DNA of 50,458 nucleotides. Origin: Candidatus Moraniibacteriota bacterium (lineage in GTDB: Bacteria > Patescibacteriota > Minisyncoccia > Moranbacterales > UBA1568). The translations under genes and the position numbers were made by a program. Below, in pieces: positions 43,721 through 50,458 of the stretch (the stretch's first letter is position 1; each line of letters starts with the position of its first letter). The DNA lies in contig JAYVWV010000033.1 in the NCBI GenBank assembly GCA_043785755.1, forward strand, positions 1 through 50,458, given 5' to 3'. Under the pieces are notes generated by a model. That model worked only from the letters and a program-made list of their open reading frames with translations. It was not told the DNA's origin and made no database searches.

Positions 43721-46700
43721 ATGAAGTCAATATTTGAAGGCTTGACGAATCAGTATGCGCTCTCCAAGACGCTCCGTTTTGAGTTGCGACCTGTTTTGAA
43801 TACGAAGCAGATGCTCGTGGATAATAAGATCATCGAGGAGGATGGTATTCGAAAAGAGAAATATGAAAAGGCGAAGTTTTATTTCAATCGTCTGCATCGT
43901 GAATTTACGGCAGAGGCGCTGAACGATATCAGATTTGATGATCTTCACGAATATTTTTCTACCTTTCAAGTATGGCAACAAAACAAGAAAGATAAAAAAT
44001 CTTTGGAGACTCTTCAAAAAAAGGAAAAGAGCTTGCGACAGGAGATCACGAAGAAATTTAATGAACATGCGAAGCTGTGGACAGATAATCAGTATGCTCA
44101 TCTGAAGTTGAAGAATAAAAGCGTGGAGCTCTTTTTTGAGGAAGCTGTTTTTTCTCTTCTGAGTGATCGGTATGGCTCTGAAGAGGACGCTCACGTTTTG
44201 AATCGTGAAACGGGAGAAATAATTACTTTGTTCGCTGACTGGAAGGGATTCACCGGGTATTTTAAGAAGTTTCATGAAACACGAAGAAATTTCTATAAGG
44301 ATGACGGTACGGCAACGGCAATTGCCACGCGGATAATCGATCAAAATCTCCGAAGATTTTGCGATAACAGTATCGTGCTTGAGAGGATCAGGGAAGTAAT
44401 TGATTATTCGGAGGTTGAGAAGAATTTCGGAAAATCATTGGATGATATTTTTTCTTTGGATGCCTACGACGGATATGTTCTTCAGGATGGTATTGATCTG
44501 TACAATCGGATTCTCGGGGGAGAAACTCTTAAGAATGGAGAAAAGAAAAGAGGTATCAATGAATTGGTAAATAAATATCGTCAAGATCATAAGGGAGAAA
44601 AGCTGCCATTTCTCAAGACTCTTGATAAGCAAATTTTGAGCGAAAAAGAAAAGCTTGTGTTCGGTATAGAAACCGATGAGGAATGTTTCGATGTGCTTTC
44701 TATATTTTATAAGAATGCTGCTGAAAAAATAGCGCTTCTTAAGAATCTTCTCGATAATTTCGTTTCAAAAAATGAGAGCTTCGATCTAGAAAAGATATAT
44801 GTTTCGCGAGAGGCACTGAATACTATTTCACATCGGTGGATCGATGATGGCCAGGTGTTCGAACAATCCCTTTTCCGGGTCTTCAAAGAGGCAAAAGATA
44901 AGTCTGCTGAGTACCAGGTTGAGGATGAAGCTTTTTCATTTCCTGATTTTATAGCGCTCGACCGTGTGCGACTGGCTCTTGAGGGATCGCCTAATCCGAA
45001 GGCGCTTTGGAAATCAAGATACTACGTGCAGGAGGAAAATGAAAGTAGTTTCGGATTTTTGTCGGGTGATACGTCATCCTGGAAACAGTTCTTGCTTATT
45101 TTGAAAAATGAATTTGAGAGTCTTTTTACAAGAGTGGAGACCGATAAAGTGACCGGGGCCGAATATGTTGCGGGCTATGACCGATCTCTGTTGGCGATCG
45201 AGCAACTCTTGAACTCCCGAGAGCAGAGGCTTAATTCGGATGAAAAGGTCGTCATCAAGAATTTTGCAGATGATGTGTTGCGCATCTATCAGATAGGAAA
45301 ATATTTTTCTTTGGAGAAAAAACGCGCGTGGAACACTGAGTACGATCTCGATTCATTATTTTATGTTCATCCGGAGATGGGGTACATGCGGTTTCACGCG
45401 CATGCATATGAAATGATCGTACAGAAATACAATGATCTGCGGAATTATCTGACGAAGAAACCGTACAGTGAGAAGAAATGGAAATTGAATTTCGAGAATT
45501 CGACTTTGGCGGCTGGGTGGGATAAAAATAAAGAATCAGATAATTCCGCGGTCATTTTGAGGAAAGATGGACGCTATTATTTAGGGCTGATGAGAAAAGG
45601 ATACAATAAGATTTTCGATCAGCGGAATGAGGGAGGATTGAAGAATGCTTTAGAGAATGGAAGCTACGAAAAGATGGTATACAAGCTTCTTCCCGGTGCG
45701 GATAAGATGCTTCCAAAAGTTTTTTTTAGTGCCTCTAATATTGGTTTCTATTTGCCATCTGAAAAAGTTTTAGAGATTAGAAATCATTCGAGTCATACGA
45801 AGGGTGGGCATCCGCAAAAGGGATTTGACAAAAAGGACTTTAATCTCGCGGATTGTCAGCGACTCATTGATTTTTTTAAGCAGTCCATTGCAAAGCATCC
45901 TGACTGGAAAGAATTTGATTTTCATTTTTCCGAAACTTCAGCATATGGTGATATGAGCGAGTTCTATCACCAGGTGGAAAATGGTGGTTATAAGGTTTCT
46001 TTCGATGAAGTCTCTCAATCATATATCGAGAAAAAGAATCAGGATGGTGAACTGTATCTCTTCGAGATTTACAATCAAGATTTCGCGAATGGAAAGAGGG
46101 GAAAGAAAAATCTCCACACGATGTATTGGGAGGCTCTATTTTCTCCCGAGAATACGGATGGATTCCCGATGAAACTCAATGGTGAAGCGGATATATTTTA
46201 TCGACCAGCAACTTTAAAAGAAAAGCTCGGCGAAAGAAGGGACGCCAAGGGAAACGTGCGCGTGGCGCATGCGCGGTATGCGGAGAATAAGATTTTCTTC
46301 CATTGCCCGATCACGCTGAATCGCGGAAAAGGGGTGTCGCGATATTTCAATCAGAAGATCAATGATCTGCTCGTGGATAATCCCGATATCAACATAATTG
46401 GCGTTGATCGTGGAGAAAAGCATCTCGCCTATTATTCGGTTATTAATCAGAATCAGAAAATTTTAGAAAGTGGCTCTCTGAATAAGATAGGCACTGTAGA
46501 TTACGCTGAGAAATTGGAAACGAAGGCGATGGACCGCGAGCAGGCACGGCGTGATTGGCAATCAGTTGAGGGGATCAAAGATCTGAAGAAGGGGTATATC
46601 TCGCAGGTTGTTCGCAGGCTCGCTGATCTTGCTATCGAATATAATGCGATCATCGTCTTGGAGGACCTGAATATGCGCTTTAAGCAGATCAGAGGGGGGA

Positions 46701-49653: not shown

Positions 49654-50458
49654 GCCGAATGAGCCTATAAGATTTCTACTGTTGTAGATATGGTGTCGTG
49701 GCTAAAGGAACAATTGCCGAATGAGCCTATAAGATTTCTACTGTTGTAGATATACAGCGTCGACAAAAGCTTTCTGAGCCGAATGAGCCTATAAGATTTC
49801 TACTGTTGTAGATATATCACCTTCTGTCGCCGCCACGCGCCGAATGAGCCTATAAGATTTCTACTGTTGTAGATTGGTAACTCGCTATCATATCCCCCGC
49901 GCCGAATGAGCCTATAAGATTTCTACTGTTGTAGATGGCGAAACCAATATGGAGACTAGCGGGCCGAATGAGCCTATAAGATTTCTACTGTTGTAGATGG
50001 GTTGAGGTGGTTGACGAAGATGTGGCCGAATGAGCCTATAAGATTTCTACTGTTGTAGATACTATGAAAGTATCTACCTGAATAACCGCCGAATGAGCCT
50101 ATAAGATTTCTACTGTTGTAGATTATGGTCACTACTCCGTCTTTCCCCAGCCGAATGAGCCTATAAGATTTCTACTGTTGTAGATCCGGTTGCGGTCTGT
50201 TCTCTCACTGTGCCGAATGAGCCTATAAGATTTCTACTGTTGTAGATCAATATGCAGTATGAAAAACGGGTTTGCCGAATGAGCCTATAAGATTTCTACT
50301 GTTGTAGATATTACGCGAAGATACCAGATATCATAGCCGAATGAGCCTATAAGATTTCTACTGTTGTAGATTAACAGCGTTTCCTATTCCTTTTCCAGCC
50401 GAATGAGCCTATAAGATTTCTACTGTTGTAGATAATAGCTGGTTTCGGGTGGCTTAAC
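49654..50458 (+). CRISPR. type V-A CRISPR array: 13 identical 36-nt repeats, runs to the window edge
   Basis: The repeat is GCCGAATGAGCCTATAAGATTTCTACTGTTGTAGAT. Copies start at 49654, 49716, 49778, 49839, 49901, 49963, 50025, 50088, 50150, 50212, 50274, 50336 and 50398. All 13 copies are identical. Spacers are 26, 26, 25, 26, 26, 26, 27, 26, 26, 26, 26 and 26 nt, plus 25 nt before the window ends. The 3' end of the repeat forms the TCTAC/GTAGA stem typical of Cas12a crRNA handles, in sense orientation on +. Confidence 0.97.

What the first reader, a model, noticed from the sequence alone, without database searches (positions are those of the whole stretch)
43721..50458. Complete single-effector type V-A (Cas12a/Cpf1) CRISPR-Cas locus with no tracrRNA candidate
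Layout, all on the + strand:
- cas12a at 43721-47596.
- cas4 at 47672-48220.
- cas1 at 48238-49221.
- cas2 at 49225-49503.
- A 150-bp leader, then the array from 49654 to the window edge.

The interference module is one 1291-aa protein. Its only recognisable nuclease fold is a split RuvC in the C-terminal third. There is no HNH insert and there are no Cascade, Cas3 or Cas10 genes.

The repeats end in TCTAC-TGTT-GTAGA-T, the Cas12a crRNA 5' handle, in the same orientation as the cas genes. I looked through the intergenic spaces (43637-43720, 47597-47671, 49504-49653) for a stretch complementary to the repeat and saw none. That fits a tracrRNA-independent, self-processing system.

By established knowledge this architecture is class 2 type V-A. 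So the type itself is not new, but it is clearly the accessory system in this window. An ortholog from a small-genome (CPR-like) host could differ in PAM, size or temperature optimum from the commonly used Fn/As/Lb enzymes. I cannot judge sequence novelty without a database search.
Basis: partly seen in the sequence, partly recalled or inferred. Interest (0 to 1): 0.9.

Follow-up and report, generated by a model that had tools for sequence, protein, structure and literature searches.

The report
CPR-bacterium Cas12a CRISPR locus, atypical RNase site
This is a genuine, complete Cas12a (type V-A) CRISPR-Cas immune locus inserted between two housekeeping genes of a Moranbacteria (CPR) genome; it is an ordinary new member of a known family, except that the three residues other Cas12a enzymes use to cut their own guide-RNA precursor are not conserved.

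Summary
All four proteins pass curated type V-A profiles. The RuvC triad (D896/E981/D1239), the Nuc arginine (R1198) and both PAM-reading lysines (K604/K666) align to their FnCas12a, AsCas12a and LbCas12a counterparts.

There is no anti-repeat, handle-like element or Rfam RNA anywhere in the window. The host is Candidatus Moranbacteria. A syntenic relative has lepA directly followed by thioredoxin, and the cas region is 42% GC against 51%, so the locus is an acquired island.

Novelty is modest. The nearest database proteins are 62-63% identical (73% for a partial one). Identity over aligned columns is 41% to Fn, 39% to Lb and 36% to As.

The pre-crRNA-processing residues (Fn H843/K852/K869) have no counterpart here. 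The whole Patescibacteria clade has a shortened, His-less linker at that site. The window protein has also lost two lysines conserved within its own subgroup. Self-processing therefore needs an experiment. No protospacers were found, so the PAM is only predicted to be T-rich.

The parts
43637..43720 (+). lepA-cas12a intergenic region: left edge of the inserted island and presumed cas12a promoter region
   Evidence: In syntenic relatives L082 and L083, lepA is followed by thioredoxin after 83 bp. This region holds no repeat-like or anti-repeat sequence. The consensus scan found no sigma-70 match here.
43721..47596 (+). cas12a (1291 aa), the single effector with REC1, REC2, WED, PI and a split RuvC carrying a Nuc insertion
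   Evidence: TIGR04330 cas_Cpf1 scores 971 bits against a cut-off of 300. PADLOC Cas12a scores 1271 bits across the full length. Pfam finds RuvC_1, REC1, Cpf1_PI-like, NUC and REC2. The best PDB matches are ReChb and FnCas12a. Identity over aligned columns is 41% to Fn, 39% to Lb and 36% to As. RuvC is D896/E981/D1239, Nuc is R1198, and the PAM lysines are K604/K666.
46196..46303 (+). Codons 826-861 of cas12a: the WED-III linker (FYRPATLKEKLGERRDAKGNVRVAHARYAENKIFFH), at the position where Fn, As and Lb carry the pre-crRNA RNase site
   Evidence: The linker is 15 aa shorter than in Fn. Fn H843 aligns to E838 or a gap. K852 falls in or next to the deletion. K869 aligns to A849. This holds by phmmer, MAFFT L-INS-i, hhalign and global alignment. 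R828 (As R790) and Y853 (Fn F873) are kept. Within the 57 relatives that share this linker length, the window deviates at K830A, V847R and K851A.
47619..47667 (+). Conserved intergenic element: TTGACA, a 14-bp perfect hairpin (47625-47657) whose loop reads GTATA, then a T-rich tail. Probably the cas12a terminator overlapping a promoter or operator for cas4-cas1-cas2
   Evidence: It appears as a terminator-like site. The 75-nt intergenic region has an MFE of -28.1 kcal/mol. The same layout follows cas12a in L017, L084, L012, L013, L019, L035, L031 and L028. In 10 of 15 pairs at least one sequence keeps the pair through changes on both sides. It has no complementarity to the repeat.
47672..48220 (+). 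cas4 (182 aa)
   Evidence: TIGR04328 cas4_PREFRAN scores 199.7 bits against a cut-off of 70. The sequence shows the four Fe-S cysteines C16, C170, C173 and C179, and the D78...E89-x-K91 nuclease motif.
48238..49221 (+). cas1 (327 aa)
   Evidence: TIGR04329 cas1_PREFRAN (type V) scores 312.3 bits against a cut-off of 300. Pfam Cas_Cas1 has E = 3e-49.
49225..49503 (+). cas2 (92 aa)
   Evidence: TIGR01573 scores 48.4 bits against a cut-off of 24.5. Pfam CRISPR_Cas2 has E = 1e-14.
49504..49653 (+). Leader (150 bp)
   Evidence: It lies between the cas2 stop and the first repeat. It is identical in the independent contig L001. No consensus sigma-70 promoter was detected. The small ORFs called here are mechanical artefacts.
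49654..50458 (+). CRISPR array: 13 identical 36-nt repeats, 12 complete spacers (25-27 nt) and one spacer cut by the window edge
   Evidence: The 3' 19 nt of the repeat, GAUUUCUACUGUUGUAGAU, is the Cas12a 5' handle with G rather than A at -19. Contig L001 shows a degenerate terminal repeat (...CTACTGTTGaataag) followed by thioredoxin, YjbQ, YceG and DnaJ.

Best explanation
This is an intact type V-A CRISPR-Cas system that a Candidatus Moranbacteria (CPR/Patescibacteria) genome acquired horizontally and carries between lepA and a thioredoxin gene.

Inferred mechanism, from the established biology of the family:
1. The array is transcribed from the leader on the + strand.
2. Each repeat's 3' 19-20 nt folds into the Cas12a handle and is bound by the WED and REC lobes.
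3. K604 and K666 read a T-rich 5' PAM.
4. The single RuvC site (D896/E981/D1239), helped by Nuc R1198, cuts both DNA strands.
5. Cas4-Cas1-Cas2 add PAM-compatible spacers at the leader end.
6. No tracrRNA is involved.

The one step that cannot be carried over from the model enzymes is 5' maturation of the crRNA. The canonical His/Lys/Lys RNase centre is absent. My best guess, at about 50-60%, is that a remodelled WED site still cuts the precursor. That site would use residues conserved in this clade (R828, K835, R839, H850, Y853; K851 in relatives). Otherwise host RNases trim the transcript.

Shown here: gene content, domain architecture, conservation of catalytic and PAM residues, repeat structure, absence of an anti-repeat, the insertion site and the host. 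Inferred: expression, PAM, DNA cleavage and the route of crRNA processing.
For: - Profiles: All four proteins exceed the curated cut-offs of type V-A-specific models.
- Alignment: The protein aligns over its full length to FnCas12a and to the ancestral Cas12a ReChb.
- Conservation: D896, E981 and D1239 are invariant in 120 homologues and align to the Fn, As and Lb triads. R1198, K604 and K666 are conserved.
- Array: There are 13 perfect repeats with unique spacers and the canonical handle hairpin, co-oriented with the cas genes. A degenerate terminal repeat sits at the far end in L001.
- No tracrRNA: No anti-repeat or handle-like sequence lies elsewhere, and Rfam gives no hit.
- Insertion: An empty site exists in syntenic relatives, and the cas region is 42.3% GC against 51.1% for the rest.
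- Host: LepA matches Moranbacteria at 86-88% identity.
- RNase-site divergence.
- Literature: The roles of H843/K852/K869 are described in PMC11127173. Lb H759 is called a 'conserved histidine' in PMC6711708.
Against: - No protospacer was found for any tested spacer, so neither activity nor PAM is supported by targets.
- No recognisable sigma-70 promoter lies in the leader.
- No expression data are available.
- The window protein lacks Fn H843/K852/K869 equivalents and also two lysines (K830, K851) that its own subgroup conserves. Processing could therefore be impaired.
Confidence: 0.93

Rival explanations
1. This is a fully canonical Cas12a. The enzyme processes its own pre-crRNA at the WED site exactly as Fn, As and Lb do, and the apparent loss of the triad is only an alignment artefact in an indel-rich loop.
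For: - This loop is indel-rich. As carries a helical-bundle insertion here (PMC6711708), and MAFFT misplaced As H800 in one run.
- R828 (As R790) and Y853 (Fn F873) are conserved.
- H850 exists two residues before the invariant R852 and is present in 40 of 57 same-length relatives.
Against: - Four alignment methods agree.
- Many clade members have no histidine at all anywhere in the linker, for example P0002, P0003, P0005 and P0029, so no realignment can restore a His843 equivalent.
- The window has Ala at both the K869 and K871 positions.
- The repeat nucleotide next to the cleavage site (-19) is always A in canonical-site loci but G, A, T or C in this clade. This suggests different constraints at the site.
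Confidence: 0.15
2. This is a processing-deficient Cas12a. The WED RNase is lost in this protein, or in the clade, and crRNA 5' ends are made by host ribonucleases or left untrimmed. DNA interference is otherwise normal.
For: - The His/Lys/Lys triad is absent.
- The window has uniquely lost K851 (1 of 120 sequences) and also K830.
- The -19 repeat position is relaxed in the clade.
- From memory: RNase-dead AsCas12a H800A still cleaves DNA with mature guides (Zetsche 2017).
Against: - The linker of the 36-aa subgroup is strongly conserved (RPKT..KLG.KKD..GK.VI.HKRY), which argues that it still has a function.
- Metal-independent RNases such as Cas6 tolerate very different catalytic residues (general knowledge).
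- The repeat handle and the flanking A(-18) and A(-20) stay conserved.
Confidence: 0.35
3. This is a decaying or inactive relic locus.
For: No spacer matches were found in any collection searched. Conserved lysines in the WED linker are replaced.
Against: - All four ORFs are full length with intact catalytic motifs.
- The 13 repeats are identical and the spacers are unique.
- The same protein sequence occurs on an independently assembled contig.
- Missing protospacers are the norm for CPR arrays, given how sparsely their phages are sampled.
Confidence: 0.05
4. The effector is a different type V protein (Cas12a2, Cas12e or another) that has been misread as Cas12a.
For: There are weak secondary hits to Cas12e and Cas12f models over the RuvC core.
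Against: - Those hits score 32-54 bits and lie below cut-off, against 971-1271 bits for full-length Cas12a models.
- The Cas12a-specific PI and NUC domains are present.
- The protein aligns end to end with FnCas12a.
Confidence: 0.01

Closest known systems
FnCas12a / type V-A locus of Francisella novicida U112 (the best characterised relative; PDB 5NG6, 6GTC and others)
   Same: - The gene order is the same: cas12a-cas4-cas1-cas2-array.
- The repeats are 36 nt with an identical handle from -18 to -1, including the UGUU loop.
- The RuvC D/E/D triad, the Nuc Arg and the PAM lysines K613/K671 are conserved.
- Neither system has a tracrRNA.
- The proteins are 41% identical over 1210 aligned columns.
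   Different: - The WED-III linker is 15 aa shorter, and H843, K852 and K869 have no equivalent.
- Repeat position -19 is G instead of A.
- The host is a CPR bacterium.
- A structured terminator/promoter-like element lies between cas12a and cas4.
Patescibacteria-clade Cas12a proteins already in public databases (e.g. PIX91618.1, Candidatus Moranbacteria, partial; QQS59074.1, Candidatus Peregrinibacteria; MDP4010946.1, Candidatus Roizmanbacteria)
   Same: - They share the clade-specific short, His-less WED linker.
- They have the same locus architecture.
- Their repeats are similar, and many also have G at -19.
- A similar intergenic hairpin is present in several.
   Different: - They are only 48-63% identical over the full length (73% for the partial L022).
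- The window protein is the only one of 120 with Ala at the K851 position, and it also has K830A and V847R.
- The genomic insertion site differs from that of its nearest relative P0002.
LbCas12a and AsCas12a (genome-editing enzymes)
   Same: The domain architecture, RuvC triad and PAM-contact lysines match (Lb K538/K595 and As K548/K607 align to K604/K666). Identity over aligned columns is 39% to Lb and 36% to As.
   Different: Lb H759/K768/K785 and As H800/K809/K860 are not matched. As has a helical-bundle insertion where the window has a deletion (PMC6711708).
ReChb (ancestral-reconstruction Cas12a, PDB 8QWD)
   Same: It is the top-scoring solved structure by sequence, at 779 bits, and aligns over residues 4-1289.
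   Different: ReChb retains the canonical ...VHKANEPIKNKN...IIKDRRY processing motif, which the window protein lacks (alignment).

Membership tests
CRISPR-Cas class 2 type V-A | A single large effector that matches Cas12a-specific profiles over its full length (REC1, REC2, WED, PI, and RuvC with a Nuc insertion; no HNH) | tested here: met
   TIGR04330 (equivalog) scores 971 bits against a cut-off of 300. PADLOC Cas12a scores 1271 bits over residues 3-1289. Five Cas12a Pfam domains are found and no HNH.
CRISPR-Cas class 2 type V-A | A conserved RuvC catalytic triad (Fn D917/E1006/D1255) and Nuc arginine (Fn R1218) | tested here: met
   The window residues are D896, E981, D1239 and R1198. The triad is invariant in 120 homologues and aligns to Fn, As and Lb.
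CRISPR-Cas class 2 type V-A | An adaptation module cas4-cas1-cas2 of the V-A (PREFRAN) subtype next to the effector | tested here: met
   cas4_PREFRAN scores 199.7 against 70, cas1_PREFRAN 312.3 against 300, and cas2 48.4 against 24.5. The genes are contiguous on the + strand.
CRISPR-Cas class 2 type V-A | A CRISPR array of about 36-nt repeats whose 3' end forms the UCUAC-N3-5-GUAGAU handle, co-oriented with cas12a | tested here: met
   There are 13 identical 36-nt repeats ending in TCTACTGTTGTAGAT. The MFE structure is the 5-bp stem with a 4-nt loop.
CRISPR-Cas class 2 type V-A | No tracrRNA (no anti-repeat near the locus) | tested here: met
   No anti-repeat with 12 or fewer mismatches in 36 nt, and no 14-mer with 1 or fewer mismatches, exists in 50 kb on either strand. 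No handle-like 19-mer with 5 or fewer mismatches lies outside the array. Rfam gives no hit. Expression was not tested.
CRISPR-Cas class 2 type V-A | Autonomous pre-crRNA processing by the WED RNase (Fn H843/K852/K869). This is a characteristic property of studied members, not a classification criterion | tested here: inconclusive
   The canonical residues are not conserved. H843 aligns to E838 or a gap, K852 falls in or next to a 15-aa deletion, and K869 aligns to A849. R828 and Y853 are conserved, and H850 is present. The activity itself cannot be judged from sequence.
CRISPR-Cas class 2 type V-A | A T-rich 5' PAM | not testable with these tools
   The PAM-contact lysines are conserved (K604, K666). 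No protospacer was found in INPHARED, IMG/VR or JGI metagenomes.
Patescibacteria (CPR) subclade of Cas12a | A shortened WED-III linker (33-50 aa between FYR and FFH) without a histidine at the Fn H843 position | tested here: met
   The window linker is 36 aa. The H843 column is a gap in 115 of 120 relatives and is never His. In 80 GTDB loci the short form is carried by all Patescibacteria-labelled loci plus a few with other labels. The canonical and GHH forms occur only in loci not labelled Patescibacteria.

The most novel reading that the evidence does not exclude
The large Patescibacteria branch of Cas12a, including this enzyme, has lost the canonical His/Lys/Lys pre-crRNA RNase centre that the literature treats as conserved. 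Either it matures crRNAs with a differently built catalytic site (candidates: H850/K851-type residues on the strand next to the invariant R852), or it depends on host RNases. The latter is most likely in this protein, which also lacks K830 and K851. Under this reading, 'self-processing' would not be a universal property of type V-A.
Probability: 0.3. Interest if true: 0.6.

Novelty: new member of a known kind. Interest (0 to 1): 0.3.

Why it matters
As a locus it adds one more Cas12a ortholog from an uncultivated small-genome lineage. It may be useful as an enzyme source, but it is not surprising: hundreds of related Patescibacteria Cas12a sequences are already public.

The more useful product of this check is a concrete, cheap-to-test question. 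Multiplexed Cas12a applications, and the textbook description of type V-A, both rely on autonomous array processing by a 'conserved' WED histidine. A whole, well-populated clade lacks that histidine, and the repeat position beside the cleavage site co-varies with this. Showing how, or whether, these enzymes mature their guides would refine the definition of the subtype. It could also yield a processing site with different sequence requirements, or one that resists the processing-site anti-CRISPR AcrVA4.

Tried and rejected
**tracrRNA or anti-repeat.** I scanned the whole window on both strands and found nothing. I also searched for a CreR-type or psi-repeat mini-array and for degenerate Cas12a handles, and found none. 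Rfam at gathering thresholds and a tRNA scan gave nothing in 50 kb.

**Protospacers and PAM.**
- All 13 spacers were searched against INPHARED phages by blastn.
- Spacers 1-6, 8 and 9 were searched as exact 20-22-mers against IMG/VR.
- Spacer 1 and the full repeat were searched against JGI metagenome contigs.
- All returned zero matches. The best self-matches in the window have 8 or more mismatches.
- Exact-match scanning misses mismatched protospacers, and spacers 7 and 10-13 were not scanned in IMG/VR.

**Leader promoter.** The consensus sigma-70 scan found nothing in the leader, and the number of sites in the region is no higher than in shuffles.

**Literature.** I found no paper in the held library on crRNA processing by CPR Cas12a, or on Cas12a that lacks the WED histidine. 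Swarts 2017 and Zetsche 2015 are not held.

**Link to tested CPR orthologs.** I tried to link clade members to the historically tested PbCpf1 and PeCpf1, but the cluster look-up gave no such names.

**Residue-nucleotide correlation.** By eye, I saw no clear pattern between the residue at 849-851 and the -19 nucleotide within the clade.

**Structure prediction.** I did not run it. The protein exceeds the 1200-aa limit, and the tools return no coordinates, so they could not resolve the RNase pocket.
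Full report
**1. Observation**

Four co-directional ORFs occupy 43721-47596 (1291 aa), 47672-48220 (182 aa), 48238-49221 (327 aa) and 49225-49503 (92 aa). After a 150-bp leader, 13 identical copies of GCCGAATGAGCCTATAAGATTTCTACTGTTGTAGAT start at 49654. They are separated by 12 unique spacers of 25-27 nt, and a 25-nt partial spacer is cut by the window edge. The 3' part of the repeat folds into the 5-bp stem and 4-nt loop of the Cas12a handle.

**2. Identity of the genes**

- The large protein hits the NCBIfam equivalog model for Cas12a/Cpf1 at 971 bits (cut-off 300). It hits PADLOC Cas12a models at up to 1271 bits over residues 3-1289.
- Pfam finds REC1, REC2, the Cpf1 PI domain, and RuvC_1 (874-1289) with the NUC domain (1061-1219) inserted. 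There is no HNH.
- Cas4 and Cas1 hit the type-V-specific 'PREFRAN' models above their cut-offs, and Cas2 hits the general model.
- Among solved structures, the best sequence matches are the reconstructed ancestor ReChb (779 bits) and FnCas12a (716 bits), then Lb2, Lb and As.

**3. Identity to model enzymes and conservation of functional residues**

I recalled the Fn, As and Lb sequences from memory and verified them end to end, without gaps, against PDB chains.

| Reference | Identity over aligned columns | BLASTP |
|---|---|---|
| Fn | 41.3% | 36.5% over 1350 columns |
| Lb | 38.7% | |
| As | 35.7% | |

Fn residues map to window residues as follows:

| Role | Fn residue | Window residue |
|---|---|---|
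| RuvC triad | D917 / E1006 / D1255 | D896 / E981 / D1239 |
| Nuc arginine | R1218 | R1198 |
| PAM lysines | K613 / K671 | K604 / K666 |

D896, E981 and D1239 are invariant in an alignment of the 120 closest database homologues.

**4. No second RNA**

- No stretch in the 50-kb window, on either strand, is complementary to the repeat. There is no full-length match with 12 or fewer mismatches and no 14-mer with 1 or fewer mismatches.
- No degenerate handle (5 or fewer mismatches in 19 nt) exists outside the array. This also argues against a CreR-like regulatory mini-array.
- Rfam reports nothing.

**5. Host and genomic setting**

- The adjacent LepA is 86-88% identical to proteins named Candidatus Moranbacteria or Moraniibacteriota. 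This confirms a CPR/Patescibacteria host.
- The rest of the window encodes type IV pilus, cell-wall and sugar-nucleotide functions.
- An independently assembled Logan contig (L001) is identical through cas12a-cas2 and the leader. Its array is collapsed. It shows that the array ends in a degenerate repeat followed by thioredoxin, YjbQ, YceG and DnaJ.
- In two fully syntenic contigs from a relative (LepA 90% identical), lepA is followed by that same thioredoxin after only 83 bp.
- The cas region has 42.3% GC against 51.1% for the rest of the window.
- Together these show that the CRISPR-Cas locus is a horizontally acquired insertion.
- The nearest Cas12a relative (P0002, 62% identical) has the same cas gene order but sits in a different neighbourhood.

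**6. Sequence novelty**

- Among 5.8 billion clustered proteins, the closest are 62-63% identical and unnamed. Named Patescibacteria Cas12a proteins follow at 48-56%.
- A partial Moranbacteria protein (L022; cluster member PIX91618.1) is 73% identical over residues 531-1290.
- A scan of GTDB representative genomes returned 244 Cas12a-encoding stretches. Many are from Patescibacteria.
- This is therefore a new ortholog within a populous, already annotated clade.

**7. The part that does not transfer from the model enzymes**

In FnCas12a, pre-crRNA is cut by H843, K852 and K869 in the WED domain (PMC11127173). The equivalent Lb H759 is described as a conserved histidine (PMC6711708).

*The window protein.* Between the invariant FYR and R-[YF]-x-E-x-K-[IF]-F-F-H motifs, the window protein has 15 fewer residues than Fn. 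Four methods were applied: phmmer, MAFFT L-INS-i anchored on Fn, As and Lb, profile-profile hhalign and global pairwise alignment. They give the following:
- H843 falls opposite E838 or a gap.
- K852 falls in or beside the deletion.
- K869 falls opposite A849.

*The clade.* This is a clade property.
- In all 120 closest homologues the linker is 33-50 aa, against 51 in Fn. The H843 column is never His, and many members have no histidine anywhere in the linker.
- Across 80 GTDB loci, 15 keep the canonical H...K...K arrangement and 8 have a 'GHH' variant; none of these is labelled Patescibacteria. All Patescibacteria-labelled loci, plus a few loci with other labels, have the short His-less form.

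*The window's own subgroup.* The linker is nevertheless not free to vary. Among the 57 relatives with the same 36-aa length, these residues are strongly conserved:
- R828, P829, L836, G837, G844, R852 and Y853
- K830 (50 of 57)
- K835 (49)
- K/R839 (55)
- D841 (54)
- V847 (48)
- H850 (40)
- K851 (54, plus 2 with R)

This suggests a remodelled, still functional site in that subgroup. The window protein keeps H850, R828, R839 and Y853. It deviates at three of the conserved positions (K830A, V847R, K851A), and it is the only one of 120 with Ala at position 851.

*The RNA side.* In the 17 loci with a canonical, GHH or As-like linker (L076, not classified, is counted with them), the repeat nucleotide at -19 is always A. 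This nucleotide lies next to the Fn cleavage site. In 29 His-less-clade loci it is G (15), A (11), T (2) or C (1), and the window has G. The difference gives Fisher p = 2e-5, not corrected for phylogeny.

*Conclusion on this point.* tracrRNA independence is supported. 'Self-processing' is an open question for this enzyme. No paper in the held library addresses it.

**8. Targets and PAM**

No protospacer was found in INPHARED (all spacers), IMG/VR (eight spacers) or JGI metagenomes (spacer 1). The exact repeat is absent from JGI contigs, and there are no self-targets. A T-rich PAM is predicted only from the conserved lysines.

**9. An extra feature inside the locus**

The 75-bp spacer between cas12a and cas4 contains TTGACA, then a perfect 14-bp hairpin with a GTATA loop, then a T-rich tail (47619-47667). 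The same arrangement follows cas12a in several Patescibacteria-clade loci: TTGAC, a stem with a conserved AAACAsC/GsTGTTT base, a TATAxT-like loop, and a T-run. The stem arms differ in sequence but stay complementary, and 10 of 15 pairs show compensatory changes. In five of the eight canonical-site loci examined (L046, L058, L070, L071, L075), cas4 nearly abuts cas12a and no such hairpin is seen. I read this element as a cas12a terminator overlapping a promoter or operator for the adaptation genes. That reading is an inference.

**10. Verdict**

The finding is real and correctly typed. It is a new member of a known kind and of modest interest. The exception is the divergent RNase site, which is worth a simple biochemical test.

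Noticed in passing
window 47619-47667; also L017, L084, L012, L013, L019, L035, L031 and L028 just after the cas12a stop: A conserved TTGACA + hairpin + T-run element lies between cas12a and cas4. The stem arms co-vary and the loop holds a TATAxT-like hexamer. It looks like a terminator with an embedded promoter or operator for cas4-cas1-cas2. It is not seen in five of the eight canonical-site Cas12a loci examined (L046, L058, L070, L071, L075), where cas4 nearly abuts cas12a.
   Followed up: partly
L082 and L083, 9001-11201, compared with window 41819-50458 and L001: Close, fully syntenic relatives have lepA followed directly by thioredoxin (83-bp gap). The whole CRISPR-Cas locus is therefore an insertion at this site. 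Its GC content is 42.3%, against 51.1% for the rest of the window.
   Followed up: yes
Repeats of 46 Cas12a loci (L002-L081) and window 49654-49689: Repeat position -19 (the first handle nucleotide, next to the Fn cleavage site) is A in all 17 loci with a canonical, GHH or As-like RNase linker. It is G, A, T or C (15, 11, 2, 1) in loci of the His-less Patescibacteria clade. This has not been corrected for phylogeny.
   Followed up: partly
L050, L054, L055, L057, L065, L069, L074, L077 (Cas12a WED-III linker): A third linker architecture occurs among Cas12a loci not labelled Patescibacteria, with a ...(K/E)GHH...LK.KF.YPII(K/S)(D/N)(K/R)RF motif. Its histidines are displaced relative to Fn H843.
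   Followed up: no
L044, L045, L048, L051 (Cas12a coding regions): The Cas12a reading frames contain 23-58 in-frame stops, all of them TGA. This is consistent with UGA-recoded CPR lineages (Gracilibacteria-type genetic code) that carry Cas12a. L073 instead looks frameshifted or mis-framed.
   Followed up: partly
L001 8043-8080: The Logan assembly collapses the array to a single repeat that ends degenerately (...CTACTGTTGaataag). This is probably the terminal repeat. The true array length beyond the 13 repeats in the window is unknown.
   Followed up: yes
L006, L019, L033, L041, L049, L066 (record titles): Several loci with Patescibacteria-clade Cas12a come from MAGs labelled Methylomirabilis, Gammaproteobacteria or Pseudomonadales. 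This may reflect binning or labelling errors rather than real hosts.
   Followed up: no
window 1270-8428: A type IV pilus gene cluster is present: a PilC-like T2SSF protein, a pseudopilin with an N-terminal methylation motif, and PilM. Nearly all large genes of the window lie on the + strand. Both are typical of CPR genomes.
   Followed up: no
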